The position numbers and the translations under genes are program-made. From Anaerolineales bacterium (lineage in GTDB: Bacteria; Chloroflexota; Anaerolineae; Anaerolineales; UBA4823), in assembly GCA_034434515.1 (NCBI GenBank), contig DAOTZA010000110.1, positions 20,429-84,428 on the forward strand: a stretch of 64,000 nucleotides of DNA, in the 5' to 3' direction. Below, piece by piece: positions 36,061 to 43,131 of this stretch (position 1 is the stretch's first letter; each line of letters opens with the position of its first letter). The notes under the pieces were generated by a model that had not been told where the DNA came from, searched no databases, and saw only the letters and a list, made by a program, of their open reading frames with translations.

Positions 36061-36137
36061 GGTGCCAGTAGCTCAATTGGCAGAGCATCGCACTGTGGAT
36101 GCGAGGGTTGTGGGTTCGAGACCCATCTGGCACCCCA
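36061..36137 (+). tRNA. tRNA-His (anticodon GUG) with encoded G-1 and 3' CCA
   Basis: Manual cloverleaf: G-1 plus GTGCCAG/CTGGCAC, D arm GCTC/GAGC, anticodon stem TCGCA/TGCGA with loop CTGTGGA, T arm GTGGG-TTCGAGA-CCCAT, C73, and CCA. Confidence 0.92.
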
Positions 36138-36153
36138 AGATACGGTTACCCCC

Positions 36154-36180
36154 ATCCCTCTATAGAGGGATTTTTTATTT
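36154..36180 (+). terminator. rho-independent terminator after tRNA-His
   Basis: ATCCCTC-TATA-GAGGGAT hairpin followed by TTTTTTATTT. The T-run overlaps the stop codon of the convergent gene. Confidence 0.7.
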
Positions 36181-37062
36181 CATTTCAAAGAAAAGTGCCT
36201 GGCGCATCTCGTGGATATGCTGCGGTGAGCTACCGCAACAAGCTCCAATTAACTTTGCCCCGAGATGACGCACGCTTTGGGCATGTTCCGCCATGACCTC
36301 TGGCAAACCATCATAAACCACTTTTCCATCCACTAGTTTAGGTATTCCGGCGTTAGCTTTAGAGATAATGGGTTTTTGACAACCTGCTTTGTGCATGCGA
36401 TCAATGACCGCTTCTAATTCTTGAGGTCCTTTGCCACAATTTGCCCCAACAGCACTCAACTCGAGCTCGTTGGCGAGTTGAACCAATTGCTCAGGCGTGA
36501 CACCCATCATCGTCCGCCCTTTGCTCTCAAAGGTCATGGTTACAGTAATCGGAAGGCGGGTGACCAATCGCGCCCCCTGAACAGCCGCTTTTACTTCTTG
36601 CAGGTCGGCCATTGTTTCAATCCAAATCACATCCACTCCGCCGCTGGACAATCCTGCAGCCTGCTCTGCGAACGCTTGAACTGCCGCTTCATAGGTCAAT
36701 TTTCCAAGCGGCGCCATCAGTTCGCCGGTCGGCCCCATTGATCCCGCAACAATAACGTTTGGATATTCATCGGCTACTGCGCGGGCTAATTCGGCTGCAG
36801 CAAGATTAATGTCGCGCACGCGGTCATCTAACCCATGTCTGCTCAGGCGGAAACGATTACCTCCAAATGTATTGGTTAGGATAACATTGGCCCCAGCCTC
36901 GATATACGCGCGATGAATTTCTTTCACCACCTCCGGATGCTCAAGATTCATCTTTTCAGGAGCTTGTCCGGCTTCCATGCCTTTTGACATCAACATCGTA
37001 CCCATTGCCCCATCCAGAAGTATCACTGTGGCTTCGGATAATAATTTTTCAAATTTATTCAT
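36175..37062 (-). CDS. homocysteine S-methyltransferase-domain protein (stand-alone MetH N-terminal-like)
   Basis: 295 aa. MGT...L, the GANVILTNTFG motif, and the zinc ligands GANCG and GACCGSSP are typical of the Hcy-binding S-methyltransferase domain. Confidence 0.8.
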   Translation of the reverse strand: MNKFEKLLSEATVILLDGAMGTMLMSKGMEAGQAPEKMNLEHPEVVKEIHRAYIEAGANVILTNTFGGNRFRLSRHGLDDRVRDINLAAAELARAVADEYPNVIVAGSMGPTGELMAPLGKLTYEAAVQAFAEQAAGLSSGGVDVIWIETMADLQEVKAAVQGARLVTRLPITVTMTFESKGRTMMGVTPEQLVQLANELELSAVGANCGKGPQELEAVIDRMHKAGCQKPIISKANAGIPKLVDGKVVYDGLPEVMAEHAQSVRHLGAKLIGACCGSSPQHIHEMRQALFFEMK

Positions 37063-37111: not shown

Positions 37112-37183
37112 TGGCGAGGGTGGGATTTGAACCCACAACCAAGGGCTTATGAGTCCCCTGCTCCACCATTGAGCTACCTCGCC
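37112..37183 (-). tRNA. tRNA with CAU anticodon (elongator Met or Ile2; not initiator), CCA not encoded
   Basis: Reverse complement folds as GGCGAGG / TA / GCTC-AATGGTG-GAGC / A / GGGGA-CTCATAA-GCCCT / TGGTT / GTGGG-TTCAAAT-CCCAC / CCTCGCC / A. The G1-C72 pair argues against a bacterial initiator. Positions 31-39 are an A/G mismatch. Confidence 0.82.
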
Positions 37184-37323: not shown

Positions 37324-38745
37324 TCAACTATTTGGCACAATTAATTCGTGAATAGCCCGCACAGCCCTTTGTTCATCAGCGCGATCGATGACCAGGGAAA
37401 TGGATACCTCCGATGAACCCTGAGCAATTGCAATGACATTGATCCCATTTGCACCTAATTTGCCGAAGATCCGTCCGGCAATGCCAGGTGTGCTGCGCAT
37501 CGCAGCCCCAACAATCGTAACAATCACGACCTCGTCGGTTGCCCAGATGCGATCAATGTCTCTGGTCGCCAATTCCCGGCTAAAAGCTTCATTCAAGGAT
37601 CGCAAAACAGTTTCAACAGACTTTTGCGGAACCGCAAAGCAAATCGATTGTTCTGAGGAGGCTTGCGTAATCAAGGGAACGCTCGTCCCGGTAGCTGCAA
37701 CAGCGCCAAAAGCTCGTGCGGCAACTCCGGGTACCCCTAGCATACCACGCCCCTCGATGGTCACCAGAGATTGCCCCTTGATTGAAGTTACCGCTTTGAT
37801 TACGCCATTGGTTTGCTTATCGTTCTCCACGGTCAAGAGAGTACCTGGATGCGAAGGGTTAAAGGTGTTCTTTACTCGAATAAGAATCCCGGCATCAATC
37901 AAGGGTTGCATGGTCTTGGGATGAACAACCTTTGCCCCATAGTAAGCCAGCTCACCGATTTCCCGAAAAGTCAACACATCAATGGTGGTTGCCTCTGGAA
38001 CAATCCGCGGATCGGCTGTCATCACACCATCGACATCCGTCCAAATCCAAACCTCCCTGGCCGGTAAACAGGCGCCCAATAAAGCTGCCGAGTAGTCACT
38101 GCCTCCGCGTCCAAGCGTAGTGGTAGTTCCATCCTCAGTCGCTGCAATGAAACCTGTCACAACCGGCACAATTTTGGAGCTTATTACAGGTAACAGCATT
38201 TCTTTGACTTTACGCTCCGTTTTTTCTCGAATCGGGTGAGCAGCTTGATAGGCGCTATCGGTCACAATCAACTTTGTAGCGTCCATAGACCTGGCTGAGA
38301 TTCCGCTAGCGTTTAAGTATTCAGCGAAAATGCGCACACACAGCATTTCACCAATCCCAGCGATCGCATCCAGGACGCGTGGCGTAGCTTCTCCAATGAT
38401 ATCAATCGCCCGACAGTATTCAGCAAACATGCTGATCAACTGATCGATTTGTTGCTTAACAAAGACTTTCCGTTCGGTCTCTTTAATTAGATCGTCCACT
38501 ACTTGATAATGTCGAGTAGTCAGGGCGCCGGCAATTTGTAAAACCTGATCATAGCGGCGATTTTTTGCCATTTCCGTGGAGCGAAGCAAATCATCGGTGA
38601 CTCCGGACATGGCTGATAAAACCACTACTGGCATCCATCCTTCCTTGATAGTGTTCTCTACAATACCTTTGACACCTGTCATTGCCTCGCTACTGCCAAC
38701 CGATGTACCCCCGAATTTCATTATTAGAAGTGGCTTATCTTTCAT
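37324..38745 (-). CDS. aspartate kinase (monofunctional, two C-terminal ACT domains)
   Basis: KFGGTSVG N-terminus, GRGGSDYSAALL, and WTDVDGVMTADPR. The ATG overlaps the upstream stop as ATGA. Confidence 0.93.
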   Translation of the reverse strand: MKDKPLLIMKFGGTSVGSSEAMTGVKGIVENTIKEGWMPVVVLSAMSGVTDDLLRSTEMAKNRRYDQVLQIAGALTTRHYQVVDDLIKETERKVFVKQQIDQLISMFAEYCRAIDIIGEATPRVLDAIAGIGEMLCVRIFAEYLNASGISARSMDATKLIVTDSAYQAAHPIREKTERKVKEMLLPVISSKIVPVVTGFIAATEDGTTTTLGRGGSDYSAALLGACLPAREVWIWTDVDGVMTADPRIVPEATTIDVLTFREIGELAYYGAKVVHPKTMQPLIDAGILIRVKNTFNPSHPGTLLTVENDKQTNGVIKAVTSIKGQSLVTIEGRGMLGVPGVAARAFGAVAATGTSVPLITQASSEQSICFAVPQKSVETVLRSLNEAFSRELATRDIDRIWATDEVVIVTIVGAAMRSTPGIAGRIFGKLGANGINVIAIAQGSSEVSISLVIDRADEQRAVRAIHELIVPNS

Positions 38746-41621
38746 CGTTCGTTCTCCTTGACAGAAATTACTGTTTGTCCTTCAAGTCGCCTGGCAAAAG
38801 CGGATAAAACCTCGTAGTAAGGCTTTATGCTGGGAATATAGTGTTTTTCGTTATACCCATGAGGATCAATACCACTCTGACCCCACACAACTCCCTGACC
38901 CGCTGGCGCAAAACGAGCGCTTGTAGCAGGTAATTTTTTGCCTATCCTGGGCGGCTCTTTGGCAACCTCTTGATACGCCTCCAGTAAAATCCGTAAATAG
39001 GGGTTTTCCGGACTGCAACGTATCCCTTTTTCGCATACCTTCAAGTGAAATTCCAGTTCATTTTGACGACATAGTTCTTCAAGATTCTTTACCAGTTCAT
39101 CGACATTTTCTTCAGGGATTGGGCGAACCTCTACACCCATAATAGCAAACTCTGGTGAGACATTGTACAAGCCCTCTTCCCCAATGCGCACAAAAGGTAT
39201 TTGAAATTGAGAATTCCACCGATCCGGGTTAGAAAGCTGGAGACTGCGCTGGAAAAGCTCAATCATTTTCTGCCGGAAGTCAAACAACTTGGCAGGCAGG
39301 TCTGCCTTTACCAGACTTCCAACAGAAGTTTGGCTCGTATGCGCCCGTGTGCCCCGCGCAATAATGTCAAACCGCATGATCCCTCGGTTGGAGGTACAGA
39401 TCTCACCCAGCAATTCATCGCCTTTTTCGCCAGTTCGCTCACCAGCAATAAATAACTCCGGTAAGGGGTATCCTTCGTTGCCAATCTGAGCCAAAACATG
39501 AGGTGTCCCCATCGGTTCAAACTCGCCATTTTCTTCATTGCCAACCAATAAAAGATTTACGGCTGGGTATGGTTCACTCTGCATTAGGCGGTCTTTGAAC
39601 CACACCAGATAAGTGGCTACCACTGTTTTCATATCCGCTGCCCCTCTACCGATAAGATAGTCTCCCTCTAAACGAGGCTGGAATTGAGATTCATCTGGAG
39701 CAGGTTGCACAACATCGAAATGTCCACTTAAAGTAACCGGGACATAAAGATGACCGGGGAATCCGATCAGTAAGGCAGGATATTTGTGTTTGTTGAAATA
39801 GCGAACTTCCAGGCCACTTCTTTCAGCATAGTTACAAATAAACGAAGCAGCAGAAGCCACATCTTCCAATCTCTCATTCGTACAGGCAGTTACGGATGGA
39901 ATTTGGATGAGTTGCATGGCAAGGTCAACGATTTCTGAGGTCTTATCAGCATAAACTTTGATGACTTGTAGCGGTCGCACCGGCTTAAATGAGATGGGAA
40001 TATTGGGGTATTGACGATACTCATCGCGACCGCGTTGGATCAGGTTCTCCAATTTATTTACCTCATTCCCCAAACGATAGAGTTCACCTTGGATCGTGGC
40101 GATATCGTTCTTGACCGCTTCTTCACGCTCTTCGGCTAATCTCTGTAAATACTCAAGGGGGATCTCGTCGACCTCGCCCAGTTCCTGCAAAACACGCCGA
40201 CGGATCTTCTGGGAGGTATTGGGTGCACCCTTTGACATTTCGACCAAGGGGTTAAGGAATGAAGTCATTTCTAACCCCTCTGCCAGTGGCGTGACTTCTT
40301 CCAAAACCCATCCCAAAAATTCCCGCACTCTGATGGGTTTCCCACTGAGAGGATTTTCGATTTCGGCATCTAGGCCATGGCGAGCAGCTTTTTCTTCATT
40401 GCGCCTAGCGCGCTCAATATCTTCTGTATCATACCGAAAGCTCACCGCAAAGGATGGATCGCTATAAAAACGGAGCAATAGAAGATATTTTAGAGTCAGA
40501 TTTGCCAAATCCGTCTCCATGTCATGTCCCCCCTCGTCACAGCGTACCTCAACCCTGGACATCGGGATATTAATCCGTGCCAGGAGATTCTGTTTTTCAA
40601 TTTCTCTTGCCATTTCTTCAGCTTGATCGTCTTTGCTAGCGGTGTAAAGACCTCGTGCATATAATTGGCGCAATTGGTCGGAGGTGATCGCGATCAAGCG
40701 CTCTACCGGTTCAGAAAAGGAACGCGCCCGAACCGGAGTCCAGTTGTTATTTCCAAATCGAATCCCTTTACGAACCAACTCATAAGAAATGCGCAAATAG
40801 TCCTCATATGAGCGATATAGGCCAGGCAAATCCAACAAAATGGGATTCGGAAAGGTCATGTTGCGAACCGAATCGGCTTTGGCGAGAACAATTACCTGCT
40901 TTCCGTTGCGATACTGGCTGACAAAGGGCGTCGAAGCGGTTGTCGCAATGAAAAGGGCTGCAAAAGCTCTGAGCAGTCGCGTGGAGCGGATATACACATA
41001 ATTTTTATATTCGTCGAGATGCTGAAAAGGTTGACTGATATGGTTGGCTAAATTTTGATTTTGGTGGACAAAATCCCAGGAGAGCAAAGTTTCTGGTAAA
41101 GAAAGATTTGTATGGATTCCCGCTGTCGCTAAGGCTGCTCCATATAAATCCACACATCGCTCAAGGTAACGTCGTTTGGCTAAATTCCATGAACCTGGGA
41201 TACAATCCTTGCCAAACTGGGGTTGAAAGAGCAAGTTTCCATGCCAGTAATAAAACCTTTCGCCAAATTTTTCGCTGGCTTGATGTAGGGCATTAATTAA
41301 GACCGCCTCCAATATTCTTGACTCATATACAGCTCCAATCAAATGATAATAGGGTCGCGTTGCCCACTCGATCATCCAGTGATAGACCTCTAATTGAGAT
41401 AGGGATCGGAAGGAAGGCGGTAGAATTTCATCACGCAGATAATCCACAAACGAAATCCGTTCCGGGCCTGACCCAACTGTCAATAGCGGCCAGAGACGCG
41501 AGTCGAGCATATTCCACTCTAGCTCATAACCGCAGATGCCGCTTTGTGGATTGGTCTGCTCTGCTACTTCTAGAGCATGACGAAATTTTTCCACAAACAA
41601 ATTTGGCTGATAATCACTCAT
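38742..41621 (-). CDS. fusion protein: GshA-like ATP-dependent carboxylate-amine ligase (N-terminal ~560 aa) + M20 metallo-amidohydrolase (C-terminal ~400 aa)
   Basis: N-terminal landmarks are GYELEWNML, MIEWATRP, AGIHTNLSLPE, NNNWTPVRARSF and RVEVRCDEGG, compared by memory with E. coli gamma-glutamylcysteine ligase. C-terminal M20 metal motifs are SGHFDVV, GRGAADMK and GNEENGE. Start at ATG 41621 behind GGAGG, overlapping the aminotransferase stop (ATGA). Confidence 0.75.
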   Translation of the reverse strand: MSDYQPNLFVEKFRHALEVAEQTNPQSGICGYELEWNMLDSRLWPLLTVGSGPERISFVDYLRDEILPPSFRSLSQLEVYHWMIEWATRPYYHLIGAVYESRILEAVLINALHQASEKFGERFYYWHGNLLFQPQFGKDCIPGSWNLAKRRYLERCVDLYGAALATAGIHTNLSLPETLLSWDFVHQNQNLANHISQPFQHLDEYKNYVYIRSTRLLRAFAALFIATTASTPFVSQYRNGKQVIVLAKADSVRNMTFPNPILLDLPGLYRSYEDYLRISYELVRKGIRFGNNNWTPVRARSFSEPVERLIAITSDQLRQLYARGLYTASKDDQAEEMAREIEKQNLLARINIPMSRVEVRCDEGGHDMETDLANLTLKYLLLLRFYSDPSFAVSFRYDTEDIERARRNEEKAARHGLDAEIENPLSGKPIRVREFLGWVLEEVTPLAEGLEMTSFLNPLVEMSKGAPNTSQKIRRRVLQELGEVDEIPLEYLQRLAEEREEAVKNDIATIQGELYRLGNEVNKLENLIQRGRDEYRQYPNIPISFKPVRPLQVIKVYADKTSEIVDLAMQLIQIPSVTACTNERLEDVASAASFICNYAERSGLEVRYFNKHKYPALLIGFPGHLYVPVTLSGHFDVVQPAPDESQFQPRLEGDYLIGRGAADMKTVVATYLVWFKDRLMQSEPYPAVNLLLVGNEENGEFEPMGTPHVLAQIGNEGYPLPELFIAGERTGEKGDELLGEICTSNRGIMRFDIIARGTRAHTSQTSVGSLVKADLPAKLFDFRQKMIELFQRSLQLSNPDRWNSQFQIPFVRIGEEGLYNVSPEFAIMGVEVRPIPEENVDELVKNLEELCRQNELEFHLKVCEKGIRCSPENPYLRILLEAYQEVAKEPPRIGKKLPATSARFAPAGQGVVWGQSGIDPHGYNEKHYIPSIKPYYEVLSAFARRLEGQTVISVKENER

Positions 41622-42934
41622 AAGGCCTCCAGGCTCTTCAAACCTTGAACCAGGCGTTCCAAAGCGCCTAACGTTCTTTCTACTGGTGTCGCATAAGAGA
41701 AGCGGATCCATTCTCCGCCATAAGCAGAGAAGAACGCACCCGGTACCACCGCTAAACCAAATTCTTCAGCAAAATACTGGCCCATCGGTTCTGTATCTGT
41801 CCACCCCTTTGCTTTCAACCACGCTCCAACATGGATAAAAGCATAATAACCTTTCCCCAGTATGTACTTGAACTGATGTTTATCCAGGAATTCTTTTAAA
41901 GCCTTGCGGCTGGCATTGGTAGGCTCGACAATGGGTTTGGAAGCTTTATCATACCCCATCTGATAAGCTGCCATAGCTACCGCCAAAGAAAAATACGGTG
42001 GCATGACCGTATGCGATGCCCGCGAAACGATGAACTTAATCACTTCTTCTGAAGCAATTAAATGACTATTGCGGATATTCGAACCACCCAGGCTTTTGGT
42101 TATTCCATCCAAAAATATTAACCGCTTTCGTTCCTCTTTTGTAAAATATTGTAAGAAGGAATTAAGATCCATGGGCTGTTCATCCGTCACGTAATGGTAC
42201 ATCCAATCAAACAACACGAATGCCACCCCAATCTCTAAAGCTTTCTTTGCCAGGCTGACTTGCCTTTCAACCGATAATGTCAATCCGGTTGGATTATCAG
42301 GATTGGTAATAACCAAACAAGCAACCTTGCGTCCCAGTTTGGCTGCATAATCCACACATTCCTGAATGCTCTCCTCAGTATATGCCCAGCCATTTTCTGG
42401 TTCTCCAGGGGCATAAAGGACATTTGCGCCAATTCCATAAGGTCCCCAATTGTAGGAAATCCAAGGCACTCTGGAAACGATGATCACGTCGCCAATGCGG
42501 CCGTATCCAAGCGATAGCATCGCTTGATAGGCTTTTACCAAAGCATCTCGCCCCCCGGCTGTACCAACTACATTGGCCGGCGTAATTCCCAACGGAGAAT
42601 CAAGTTTCCAGTAATCTTCAATCACCGAACGACGGAAATCATCTGTCCCGTAGGGCATATCGTAGGATGTCCCATGTTTGATTTGCATTTCGGCGGCTTT
42701 TTCTAGGATTTCTGGCAGGACTCCAGGCAAGCTGGCGCCTCCATCTCCTTGAGACGCATCGAAAATGGGCTGTCCGGGATATTTCTCTTGAAAAACCTTC
42801 AAAGATTTATTAATCAGGAACATTCGCGAGGGAGGAATGTCCATCATTTTTCTCAAATAATCATTGACTGGGATTAAGTTCTCCTGAGGAACTGCGAAGA
42901 CCGGTTGATCAAGGGGGGCAAGATTTTCCATCAT
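41618..42934 (-). CDS. divergent class I/II pyridoxal-phosphate aminotransferase, substrate unknown
   Basis: TNPDNPTG and the Lys motif GITKSLGGSNIRNS. An unusual N-terminal FDASQGDGGASLPG replaces the usual GEPDF motif. Confidence 0.85.
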   Translation of the reverse strand: MMENLAPLDQPVFAVPQENLIPVNDYLRKMMDIPPSRMFLINKSLKVFQEKYPGQPIFDASQGDGGASLPGVLPEILEKAAEMQIKHGTSYDMPYGTDDFRRSVIEDYWKLDSPLGITPANVVGTAGGRDALVKAYQAMLSLGYGRIGDVIIVSRVPWISYNWGPYGIGANVLYAPGEPENGWAYTEESIQECVDYAAKLGRKVACLVITNPDNPTGLTLSVERQVSLAKKALEIGVAFVLFDWMYHYVTDEQPMDLNSFLQYFTKEERKRLIFLDGITKSLGGSNIRNSHLIASEEVIKFIVSRASHTVMPPYFSLAVAMAAYQMGYDKASKPIVEPTNASRKALKEFLDKHQFKYILGKGYYAFIHVGAWLKAKGWTDTEPMGQYFAEEFGLAVVPGAFFSAYGGEWIRFSYATPVERTLGALERLVQGLKSLEAL

Positions 42935-42960
42935 TCACTCCTTTTCGTTTTCTTTATGAT

Positions 42961-42985
42961 AAAAAAACGCCCCAGATGGGGCGTT
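42961..42985 (-). terminator. intrinsic terminator / attenuator hairpin (AACGCCCC-ATCT-GGGGCGTT + U7) 26 nt upstream of the aminotransferase start
   Basis: Read on the minus strand: an 8-bp GC-rich stem, a 4-nt loop, and seven T. Located inside the 5' leader of the operon. Confidence 0.75.
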
Positions 42986-43014
42986 TTGGTTAATCGGTTT
43001 TCTTCACTAGCCAA

Positions 43015-43092
43015 TTAAGCGCGAACGCCCCACCGGTTTGGGTAGGTAGTGGTGGTCATCGTATTGGTGGTGGTCGCGCAGTCTGACATCAT
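43015..43092 (-). CDS. 25-codon Thr-rich leader peptide MMSDCATTTNTMTTTTYPNRWGVRA
   Basis: ATGATG at 43092 through TAA at 43017-43015. Eight of 25 codons are Thr (ACC x6, ACG, ACT), in two runs. Too short for the ORF track. Positioned between a promoter and a terminator hairpin. Confidence 0.6.
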   Translation of the reverse strand: MMSDCATTTNTMTTTTYPNRWGVRA

Positions 43093-43102
43093 ATTGGGCG
43101 CT

Positions 43103-43131
43103 AATATATCACCTGAAAAACAATCCGTCAA
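43103..43131 (-). promoter_or_regulatory. sigma-70-type promoter (TTGACG-17-TATATT) of the leader/aspartokinase operon
   Basis: Minus strand: TTGACG at 43131-43126, a 17-nt spacer, and TATATT at 43108-43103. The leader ATG is 10 nt downstream. Confidence 0.6.

What the first reader, a model, noticed from the sequence alone, without database searches (positions are those of the whole stretch)
42961..43131. Unannotated threonine-rich leader peptide with competing terminator and antiterminator upstream of the aspartokinase operon
Location: minus strand, between the polyprenyl synthase stop (43152) and the aminotransferase start (42934).

What the sequence shows, in order:
- A near-consensus promoter, TTGACG-17-TATATT (43131-43103).
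- Ten nt later, ATGATG opens a 25-codon ORF, MMSDCATTTNTMTTTTYPNRWGVRA (43092-43015). It carries 8 Thr codons in two runs (ACC ACC ACC AAT ACG ATG ACC ACC ACT ACC).
- The last sense codons, TGG GGC GTT, contain GGGGCGTT (43031-43024).
- Downstream lies the hairpin AACGCCCC-ATCT-GGGGCGTT followed by seven U (42985-42961).

Why it looks like an attenuator: the GGGGCGTT inside the ORF is an exact copy of the 3' arm of the hairpin. The ORF-internal copy can therefore pair with the 5' arm AACGCCCC and preclude the terminator. The 38 nt between them can fold on themselves (TTAATTGG/CCGATTAA, with one G-U pair).

Proposed mechanism: a ribosome that reaches the TAA would mask the ORF-internal copy and allow termination. 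A ribosome stalled on the Thr codons would leave it free, allowing read-through. This is the logic of the enterobacterial thr leader, and the controlled operon ends in an aspartokinase. The other residues inside the Thr runs, Asn and Met, are also aspartate-family amino acids.

Open points: I am not aware of this element being described for this kind of organism. The leader ORF has no Shine-Dalgarno, so it would have to be translated from a (nearly) leaderless transcript.
Basis: partly seen in the sequence, partly recalled or inferred. Interest (0 to 1): 0.8.

Follow-up and report, generated by a model that had tools for sequence, protein, structure and literature searches.

The report
Leaderless threonine/asparagine attenuator in Anaerolineae
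A short, threonine- and asparagine-rich mini-gene with a built-in "stop or go" RNA switch sits in front of an aspartate-family operon in this Chloroflexota bacterium and about 145 relatives, which extends the classic amino-acid-sensing attenuator to a new phylum and points to an uncharacterised pathway.

Summary
These are the promoter TTGACG-17-TG-n-TATATT, an ATG 10 nt later, a 25-codon ORF with 8 Thr codons, an internal GGGGCGTT copy and a terminator hairpin. The window comes from an Anaerolineales (Chloroflexota) genome.

The element is conserved upstream of the same aminotransferase gene in 64 genome loci and 81 further distinct metagenome leaders.
- The promoter-to-ATG spacing is fixed at 8 or 10 nt with no Shine-Dalgarno, so the leader is probably leaderless.
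- Only one frame is open. It holds 23-24% Thr and 13-18% Asn.
- GGGGCGTT is read in different frames in different clades, so it is conserved as RNA, not as peptide.
- Terminator and antiterminator both covary. This includes three-way compensated changes (G/C/G to A/T/A and T/A/T).
- A covariance model built without the window's clade finds this site alone in the 64 kb (E about 5e-9).
- No Rfam family matches.

- The sensor codons are Thr plus Asn (and some Asp), not Thr alone.
- The conserved target is the aminotransferase plus a GCS2-like/DapE-like fusion protein. The aspartokinase is attached only in some clades.
- A region 1:2 helix also exists.

Verdict: a ribosome-mediated attenuator, a new variant of a known kind. 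No experiment has tested it.

The parts
43126..43131 (-). -35 hexamer TTGACG
   Evidence: TTGAC(G) with a 17-nt spacer is present in 63 of the 65 genome leaders for which a promoter plus ATG was found and in all 81 metagenome leaders.
43103..43111 (-). Extended -10 element, TG-A-TATATT
   Evidence: TGnTAnnnT is conserved in the relatives.
43015..43092 (-). Leader ORF of 25 codons plus TAA, MMSDCATTTNTMTTTTYPNRWGVRA. The ATG lies 10 nt after the -10 and there is no Shine-Dalgarno, so translation is probably leaderless or nearly so.
   Evidence: Across the family, frame 0 is open while the other two frames hold 51 and 97 stops.
43045..43074 (-). Regulatory codon cluster, codons 7-16 (TTTNTMTTTT): 8 Thr and 1 Asn.
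   Evidence: Family composition is Thr 23-24% and Asn 13-18%. Close relatives show synonymous ACC/ACT/ACA/ACG changes.
43066..43079 (-). Region 1 (GCGCGACCACCACC), which covers the first Thr run. It pairs with region 2 as an anti-antiterminator (protector) helix.
   Evidence: It forms in the minimum-free-energy fold. The 13 pairs are kept in the window and L001-L005, with one compensatory G-C to A-T change in L003. Statistics across the whole family are weak.
43019..43034 (-). Region 2 (GGTGGGGCGTTCGCGC), the 5' strand of the antiterminator. It contains the internal GGGGCGTT, and the leader stop codon follows directly after it.
   Evidence: It is read in a different frame in other clades (G R W instead of W G V), so it is conserved as RNA.
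42990..43018 (-). Middle hairpin (TTAATTGG ... CCGATTAA), which caps the antiterminator stem.
   Evidence: A hairpin sits at the same place in relatives with different sequences.
42978..42987 (-). Region 3 (AAAACGCCCC), shared by the antiterminator (pairing with region 2) and the terminator (pairing with region 4).
42961..42973 (-). Region 4 (GGGGCGTT) and the U-tract: the 3' arm and tail of the intrinsic terminator.
41618..42934 (-). First regulated gene: a class I/II aminotransferase (438 aa) with an AAGGAG Shine-Dalgarno.
   Evidence: The closest solved structures are aspartate aminotransferases, at only about 71 bits.
38742..41621 (-). Second gene: a 959-aa fusion of an N-terminal GCS2-like carboxylate-amine ligase domain and a C-terminal DapE-like M20 hydrolase. 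Its start overlaps the aminotransferase stop (ATGA).
37324..38745 (-). Third gene: aspartokinase with two ACT domains. Its start overlaps the fusion gene's stop (ATGA).
   Evidence: The closest solved structure is the Methanocaldococcus jannaschii aspartokinase 3C1M (E = 3e-98).

Best explanation
This is a ribosome-mediated (leader-peptide) transcription attenuator of the trp/his/thr type. It uses a leaderless or nearly leaderless leader ORF and Thr plus Asn (and some Asp) sensor codons.

How it most likely works:
1. Transcription starts a few nucleotides before the ATG at 43092 (inferred from promoter spacing).
2. A ribosome initiates on the 5'-terminal AUG (inferred).
3. When Thr-tRNA and Asn-tRNA are well charged, the ribosome runs to the stop codon and covers region 2 (43034-43019). 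Region 3 (42987-42978) then pairs with region 4 (42973-42964) and the terminator releases the transcript at the U-tract.
4. When Thr or Asn charging is low, the ribosome stalls on codons 7-16. This melts the region 1:2 helix and leaves region 2 free. Region 2 pairs with region 3 before region 4 is made, the terminator cannot form, and RNA polymerase reads into the translationally coupled aminotransferase, fusion-protein and aspartokinase genes.
5. With no ribosome at all, the 1:2 helix would favour termination (inferred).

Shown in silico: the anatomy, its conservation, the covariation of both helices, and the geometry of ribosome masking. Inferred: the transcription start, leaderless translation, and the response to amino-acid supply.
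For: Anatomy: present in the window as described.

Conservation: found in 64 Anaerolineae genome loci and 81 further distinct metagenome leaders, always just upstream of the same aminotransferase gene whatever lies further upstream.

Coding signal:
- Frame 0 is open, with Thr 24.1% and Asn 13.3% (22.9% and 18.4% in metagenomes).
- The other two frames hold 51 and 97 stops.
- Thr codons change synonymously between close relatives.

Leaderless design: TTGACG, a 17-nt spacer and TGnTAnnnT, with the ATG 8 nt (69 of 81) or 10 nt downstream and no Shine-Dalgarno. The aminotransferase gene does have AAGGAG.

RNA-level constraint: GGGGCGTT is read as W-G-V in the window clade and as G-R-W in the main clade.

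Terminator: 94.3% of cells paired, with 30 double-change cells against 6.1 in shuffles (0 of 500 shuffles reach this).

Antiterminator:
- 88.2% of cells paired, with 19 double-change cells against 5.2 in shuffles (0 of 500).
- Three-way compensated states across regions 2, 3 and 4: A/T/A in 5 sequences and T/A/T in 3.
- Region 2:3 duplex energies are mostly -15 to -28 kcal/mol, against about -10 +/- 2.5 for shuffles.
- RNAalifold recovers the 2:3 helix on its own in two clades when region 4 is left out.

Masked folds: on transcripts cut before region 4, the 2:3 helix forms with a ribosome on the Thr codons and is abolished with a ribosome at the stop.

Specificity:
- The hairpin pattern occurs only at this site in about 800 kb of loci and in the 64-kb window.
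- A covariance model built without the window clade hits the window once, at 42958-43035 on the minus strand, with 32.5 bits and E about 5e-9.

Operon structure: ATGA overlaps link the three genes.
Against: - There is no experimental evidence of any kind: no mapped 5' or 3' ends, no proof of translation and no physiology.
- The full-length minimum-free-energy fold always keeps the terminator, whatever ribosome mask is applied. The model therefore needs the usual kinetic (co-transcriptional) argument.
- About half the family has an A-C mismatch in the antiterminator, where region 2 reads GGGACGTT (pair 93/168 is unpaired in 34 of 64).
- The core helices are so conserved that only 3-5 pairs show double changes.
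- The 1:2 helix has weak statistics outside the window clade, with a mean z of -1.4.
- Part of the ACC-AAY (Thr-Asn) enrichment could reflect the need for region 1 to mimic region 3 (ACCAA) rather than amino-acid sensing.
- The function of the two conserved regulated genes is unknown, so the physiological logic for Thr and Asn cannot be checked.
- Five loci kept the promoter and hairpin but lost the ORF.
Confidence: 0.85

Rival explanations
1. The hairpin is only the intrinsic terminator of the upstream polyprenyl synthase gene, followed or preceded by an independent promoter. The Thr-rich ORF and the internal GGGGCGTT copy are chance.
For: The hairpin lies 165 nt downstream of the polyprenyl synthase stop on the same strand. 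Some relatives without the leader have a plain terminator at that position (L008, L031, L052, L071).
Against: - The promoter sits between the synthase stop and the hairpin.
- The whole element travels with the aminotransferase in clades where no polyprenyl synthase lies upstream.
- The ORF frame, the codon bias and region 2 are conserved, and region 2 covaries with region 3.
- The hairpin sequence is unique to this site.
Confidence: 0.03
2. The small ORF encodes a functional peptide, for example a scaffold or carrier peptide (RiPP-like or LysW-like) acted on by the downstream ligase, aminotransferase and M20 hydrolase. On this reading the RNA structures are incidental or only terminate its transcript.
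For: From memory, not tested here: a ligase, an aminotransferase and an M20 deacylase resemble the enzyme set of amino-group-carrier-protein pathways (LysX, LysJ, LysK). The main clade shows apparent peptide conservation, for example MFSQFIVDTNTN..TGRWWLSGEQQQVH.
Against: - The C-terminal part is read in different frames in different clades and the stop position varies by 40 nt.
- The conserved 'GRWW' is explained by the RNA pairing of region 2.
- Only the Thr/Asn-rich composition is shared family-wide.
- Three-way covariation shows selection on mutually exclusive RNA helices.
- No conserved C-terminal acidic handle is present.
Confidence: 0.04
3. The element is a translation-independent riboregulator. 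A metabolite, a tRNA (as in a T-box) or a protein would bind the leader RNA and choose between the antiterminator and the terminator. The ORF would be a by-product.
For: The terminator/antiterminator pair alone would fit any riboswitch-like attenuator. From memory, T-boxes occur in Chloroflexota.
Against: - No Rfam family, T-box included, matches here or in 10 relatives.
- The segment upstream of region 2 is variable in sequence and conserved only in reading frame and codon composition, which is unlike an aptamer.
- The start codon keeps a fixed distance from the -10.
Confidence: 0.05

Closest known systems
Enterobacterial thr operon leader (thrL; Rfam RF00506 Thr_leader)
   Same: - A short leader ORF with runs of Thr codons.
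- A terminator and antiterminator that share a strand.
- A stalled ribosome favours read-through.
- The regulated operon contains an aspartokinase.
   Different: - It is not homologous: 19.7 bits against a gathering score of 55.
- From memory, thrL is translated from a Shine-Dalgarno and mixes Thr with Ile codons. Here there is no Shine-Dalgarno, the ATG lies 8-10 nt from the -10, and Thr is mixed with Asn and Asp.
- The conserved targets are an aminotransferase and a GCS2-like/M20 fusion, not thrABC.
- The phylum is Chloroflexota.
Leaderless leader-peptide attenuators of Actinobacteria: mycobacterial polycysteine short ORFs (bioRxiv 10.1101/834739) and the Corynebacterium glutamicum ilvBNC attenuator (PMC11857589)
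   Same: The sensor ORF is the first cistron of a leaderless transcript. Amino-acid-specific codon clusters control expression of the downstream operon.
   Different: - The amino acids differ (Cys, or branched-chain).
- The phylum differs and there is no sequence relationship.
- In those systems the transcription start was mapped. Here it is only inferred from promoter spacing.
T-box riboswitches (tRNA-sensing terminator/antiterminator leaders)
   Same: They sense aminoacyl-tRNA status and act through mutually exclusive terminator and antiterminator helices upstream of amino-acid genes.
   Different: There is no T-box match in Rfam and no specifier-loop architecture. Here the signal is read by a translating ribosome on a conserved ORF.

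Membership tests
Ribosome-mediated (leader-peptide) transcription attenuators | A short ORF just upstream of the operon with clustered codons for the sensed amino acid(s) | tested here: met
   The window ORF has 8 Thr in 25 codons. Across the family, frame 0 has Thr 23-24% and Asn 13-18%, and the other two frames are closed by 51 and 97 stops.
Ribosome-mediated (leader-peptide) transcription attenuators | An intrinsic terminator (G+C-rich hairpin plus U-tract) between the leader ORF and the first structural gene | tested here: met
   94.3% of cells are paired across 64 sequences, with covariation above the controls.
Ribosome-mediated (leader-peptide) transcription attenuators | An antiterminator helix that uses the terminator's 5' arm and a strand inside or next to the ORF, mutually exclusive with the terminator | tested here: met
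   Duplex energies are well below shuffles. 88.2% of cells are paired, with 19 double-change cells against 5.2 in shuffles. Three-way compensated changes occur. RNAalifold recovers the helix.
Ribosome-mediated (leader-peptide) transcription attenuators | Geometry: a ribosome at the stop codon masks the antiterminator strand, and a ribosome stalled on the sensor codons leaves it free | tested here: met
   Masked folds of the window and of L042. The stop lies inside or just after region 2 in the window clade, or just before region 3 in the main clade. This is an in silico test only.
Ribosome-mediated (leader-peptide) transcription attenuators | An anti-antiterminator (1:2) helix that forms when the leader is not translated | tested here: inconclusive
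   A 13-bp helix is conserved in the window clade, with one compensatory change. Family-wide, the duplex z-score averages only -1.4.
Ribosome-mediated (leader-peptide) transcription attenuators | The leader is translated and read-through rises on starvation for the sensed amino acid | not testable with these tools
   This needs 5'/3' end mapping, ribosome profiling and reporter assays.
Rfam RF00506 Thr_leader | A covariance-model score at or above the gathering threshold of 55 bits | tested here: not met
   19.7 bits, E = 1.1.
Leaderless leader-peptide attenuators (actinobacterial type) | The start codon lies at or within a few nucleotides of the transcription start, with no Shine-Dalgarno | tested here: inconclusive
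   The spacing from the -10 to the ATG is 8 nt in 69 of 81 metagenome leaders and 10 nt in the window, and no Shine-Dalgarno is present. The transcription start has not been mapped.
T-box riboswitch | A match to the T-box model (specifier loop and T-box sequence) | tested here: not met
   There is no T-box hit in the window or in 10 related loci.
Anaerolineae Thr/Asn leader family (defined here) | Recognised by a covariance model built from other clades only | tested here: met
   Model R1 was built from 47 sequences with the window clade excluded. It gives one hit in the window, at 42958-43035 on the minus strand, with 32.5 bits, E about 5e-9 and a full-length match.

The most novel reading that the evidence does not exclude
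The attenuator may flag an uncharacterised aspartate-family pathway. The two genes it always controls are a divergent class I aminotransferase and a fusion of an ATP-dependent carboxylate-amine ligase with a DapE-like deacylase. Together they could form a new 'ligate, transaminate, hydrolyse' route. Candidates are a gamma-glutamyl-protected variant of the diaminopimelate pathway, or a new route feeding Asn and Thr. Expression would be set by combined Thr-tRNA and Asn-tRNA charging through a leaderless sensor ORF. To my knowledge, Asn-codon sensing by an attenuator has not been described.
Probability: 0.25. Interest if true: 0.75.

Novelty: new variant of a known kind. Interest (0 to 1): 0.55.

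Why it matters
Leader-peptide attenuation is a textbook mechanism, documented mainly in Proteobacteria and Actinobacteria. I found no description of it for Chloroflexota or Anaerolineae in the searchable literature or in Rfam 15.

- This family has about 145 distinct members. It offers a clean natural data set of three-way covariation between mutually exclusive helices.
- It is a second, independent phylum in which the sensor ORF appears to be leaderless.
- It appears to be an attenuator that reads Asn together with Thr.
- In practice it is a regulatory label. It says that an aminotransferase and a very widespread but unnamed GCS2-like/M20 fusion protein (more than 1,500 homologues) belong to aspartate-family amino-acid supply. 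That makes the function of these genes testable.
- It also gives a covariance model that can be used to annotate Anaerolineae genomes.

Tried and rejected
- Rfam scans of the window and of 10 related loci found no family. Thr_leader, Phe_leader and Trp_leader gave only sub-threshold hits driven by the terminator.
- Full-length folds with ribosome masks were uninformative, because the local terminator hairpin always wins thermodynamically. I replaced them with folds of transcripts cut before region 4.
- The family-wide test of the 1:2 helix by duplex energy against shuffles was weak, because the ACC-rich leader pairs with GGU-rich RNA anyway. I kept only the window-clade evidence.
- The metagenome pattern scan returned about 20 unrelated terminators from other organisms that share the AACGCCCCGA/TCGGGGCGTT stem. 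They have no promoter or ORF and were discarded.
- The function of the aminotransferase and the fusion protein could not be resolved. Pfam, NCBIfam, PDB sequence and profile searches, homologue names and gene neighbourhoods gave only family-level hints.
- A lysine (DAP) assignment is suggested by the DapE-like and DapC-like similarities. However, Lys codons make up only about 1.8% of the leaders, so I did not adopt it.
- The carrier-peptide or RiPP reading was considered and rejected because the reading frames differ between clades.
- Literature searches for attenuators in Chloroflexi or Anaerolinea found nothing. The 2010 survey by Lopatovskaya et al. is not in the library and could not be checked.
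- A scan of the window for other promoter-proximal short ORFs with skewed composition found none.

Full report
**Observation**

- TTGACG lies at 43131-43126. Seventeen nucleotides later comes TG-A-TATATT, with the -10 hexamer at 43108-43103.
- Ten nucleotides after that comes ATGATG, starting at 43092.
- The ORF has 25 codons and encodes MMSDCATTTNTMTTTTYPNRWGVRA. Its TAA stop is at 43017-43015.
- GGGGCGTT lies at 43031-43024.
- The TTAATTGG/CCGATTAA hairpin follows.
- The terminator is AACGCCCC-ATCT-GGGGCGTT plus a T-run (42985-42961).
- An AAGGAG Shine-Dalgarno then precedes the aminotransferase start at 42934.

The consensus scans recover the promoter (10/12 matches plus TG) and the terminator (10 pairs). 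The region folds better than shuffles, with z = -3.1. Three of the six GGGGCGTT copies in the 64 kb lie in this 70-nt stretch, against 1.9 copies expected in the whole window. This is the only promoter-proximal short ORF in the window with a strong residue bias.

**Context**

The downstream genes are a class I/II aminotransferase (41618-42934), a long fusion protein and an aspartokinase with two ACT domains (37324-38745).
- Homologues show that the fusion protein starts at 41621 (959 aa). Both gene junctions are ATGA overlaps, so the three genes form one translationally coupled unit.
- Upstream on the same strand are phosphoglucomutase, TatD and polyprenyl synthase genes.
- The closest relatives of the aminotransferase are all from Anaerolineae/Anaerolineales metagenome-assembled genomes, at 70-92% identity.

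**Comparative test**

I fetched 80 orthologous loci and examined the region upstream of the aminotransferase.
- Sixty-four non-redundant loci carry the same element. It consists of TTGAC(G), a 17-nt spacer, TGnTAnnnT, an ATG (in L026 and L030 a GTG) 7-13 nt later, an ORF of 23-45 codons, a copy of (A)CGGG(G/A)CGTTGG starting 49-72 nt after the ATG, and the terminator AACGCCCC(GA)-loop-(TC)GGGGCGTT followed by a U-tract.
- A metagenome scan for the region 2-3-4 pattern added 81 further distinct leaders with the same promoter. The ATG lies 8 nt after the -10 in 69 of them and 10 nt after it in 10.
- The element follows the aminotransferase gene, not the polyprenyl synthase gene. Most clades have different upstream neighbours.
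- The hairpin pattern occurs nowhere else in about 800 kb of loci or in the window.

**Evidence that the ORF is read**

Between the start codon and region 2, frame 0 contains 24.1% Thr, 13.3% Asn and 5.5% Asp.
- Frame 0 has eight stops, which come from miscalled starts such as L026/L030 and from ORFs that end before region 2. The other two frames have 51 and 97 stops.
- The metagenome set gives 22.9% Thr, 18.4% Asn and 7.0% Asp.
- Close relatives change Thr codons synonymously among ACC, ACT, ACA and ACG.
Lys is about 1.8%.
- The fixed short distance from a strongly conserved extended -10 to the ATG, with no Shine-Dalgarno in an organism that uses AAGGAG on the next gene, argues for leaderless or nearly leaderless initiation. 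This is an inference, because no transcription start has been mapped.
- A low percentage of leaderless genes has been predicted in Chloroflexi (PMC3160421).

**Evidence that the RNA switch is real**

- GGGGCGTT is read as W-G-V in the window clade and as G-R-W in most others. The ORF stops inside region 2 (L006, L007), 8 nt after the GGGGCGTT (window clade), or 35-45 nt later just before region 3 (main clade). The motif is therefore conserved as RNA, not as peptide.
- On a 64-sequence alignment the terminator is 94.3% paired, with 30 double-change cells against 6.1 in shuffles. Slid controls fall to 27-60% paired.
- The 9-bp antiterminator core is 88.2% paired, with 19 double-change cells against 5.2 in shuffles. 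Slid controls fall to 33-50% paired.
- At the most variable position the three strands change together. G/C/G (44 sequences) becomes A/T/A (5 sequences) or T/A/T (3 sequences).
- Region 2:3 duplex energies are mostly -15 to -28 kcal/mol, against about -10 for shuffles.
- RNAalifold predicts the 2:3 helix on its own in the window clade and in the main clade when region 4 is left out.
- A covariance model built from 47 sequences, with the window clade excluded, finds one site in the window. It lies at 42958-43035 on the minus strand, with 32.5 bits and E about 5e-9.

**Mechanism**

I folded transcripts cut just before region 4.
- The 2:3 stem, capped by the middle hairpin, forms when a ribosome is placed on Thr codons 7-16. 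It disappears when the ribosome sits at the stop codon. The same holds for a main-clade representative, L042.
- In the full-length RNA the terminator is always the thermodynamic winner. As in classical attenuators, the choice must therefore be kinetic.
- The free minimum-free-energy fold pairs region 1 (GCGCGACCACCACC, the first Thr run) with region 2. These 13 pairs are kept in the window clade, with one compensatory G-C to A-T change in L003.
- Elsewhere the predicted 1:2 pairing again involves the Thr/Asn codons (ACCAAY with RTTGGT, CCCGC with GCGGG), but the statistics are weak.
- Part of the Thr-Asn codon bias may therefore serve this mimicry of region 3.

**What is regulated**

The conserved targets are the aminotransferase and the fusion protein.
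- The aspartokinase is adjacent in the window clade, in L014, L017 and L022, and in L081, where a LysE/RhtB-type exporter is inserted before it.
- The aminotransferase is only distantly related to solved aspartate aminotransferases (71 bits).
- The fusion protein has a DapE-like M20 domain and an N-terminal domain that Pfam recognises as GCS2 in many homologues. More than 1,500 homologues exist, none with a meaningful name.
- The aspartokinase is closest to the Methanocaldococcus jannaschii enzyme (3C1M), which from memory is threonine-sensitive.
- Thr, Asn and Asp all derive from aspartate. The simplest reading is that the operon supports aspartate-family supply, but the chemistry of the two core enzymes is unknown.

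**Comparison with known systems**

The logic matches that of the enterobacterial thr leader, but the element is not a member of that family (19.7 bits against a cut-off of 55).
- The leaderless arrangement has precedents in Actinobacteria: mycobacterial polycysteine short ORFs (bioRxiv 10.1101/834739) and C. glutamicum ilvBNC (PMC11857589).
- No Rfam family matches the element in the window or in ten relatives.
- Literature searches found no attenuator described for Chloroflexi or Anaerolineae. One older survey could not be read.

**Verdict**

It is a new variant of a known kind of regulator. It is of moderate interest in itself, and of more interest as a pointer to an unknown aspartate-family pathway.

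Noticed in passing
window 38742-41621 (-), with homologues P0001-P0120: The second gene is a 959-aa fusion of a GCS2-like carboxylate-amine ligase domain and a DapE-like M20 hydrolase. It has more than 1,500 homologues, apparently all in Anaerolineae-type contigs, annotated only as 'succinyl-diaminopimelate desuccinylase' or 'M20 peptidase'. The longest ORF (989 aa, from 41711) over-extends the true start by 30 codons.
   Followed up: partly
window 41618-41621 and 38742-38745: Both gene junctions (aminotransferase to fusion, fusion to aspartokinase) are ATGA start/stop overlaps, which implies translational coupling of the three genes.
   Followed up: yes
L012, L016, L025, L027, L046 (about 90 nt upstream of the aminotransferase start): These loci keep the promoter (TTGAC-17-TATAAC) and the region 3/4 hairpin but have lost the leader ORF and region 2, and the U-tract is weakened (GGGGCGTTTTGG). 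They look like a deregulated derivative of the attenuator.
   Followed up: partly
L134:5285-5387 (-) and L136:1077-1182 (-): These are genuine family members (61-65 bits with model R1). Their leaders are Asn/Asp-rich with little Thr (MELTSYLFCTDNNDDNRNRIISMTGRWCIR). They precede a 330-aa membrane-anchored protein with no Pfam hit rather than the usual aminotransferase. A different class I/II aminotransferase domain lies further downstream in L134.
   Followed up: partly
Between the -10 and the ATG in most leaders (for example TGCGCGCA); window 43093-43102 (AGCGCCCAAT): The discriminator between the -10 and the start codon is conserved and G+C-rich. From memory, this is typical of promoters that are negatively controlled by the stringent response. 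That would be unexpected for an amino-acid biosynthetic promoter.
   Followed up: no
window 37112-37183 (-), 36175-37062 (-), 36062-36137 (+): A tRNA with a CAT anticodon (called Met) lies directly after the aspartokinase. It is followed by a homocysteine S-methyltransferase gene, and a tRNA-His lies on the other strand. Whether the tRNA is co-transcribed with the attenuated operon is unknown.
   Followed up: no
L081:12862-13479: In one clade a LysE/RhtB-family amino-acid exporter gene is inserted between the fusion gene and the aspartokinase.
   Followed up: no
L040, L044, L057, L060, L080 (leaders ending ..SSWDGGQWK or ..SSWDRVPWR): This divergent subgroup has the same promoter and terminator but a different region 2 (TGGGATGGCGGCC). 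It pairs poorly with region 3 in my duplex test (-7 to -13 kcal/mol, no better than shuffles). Its antiterminator may be organised differently.
   Followed up: no
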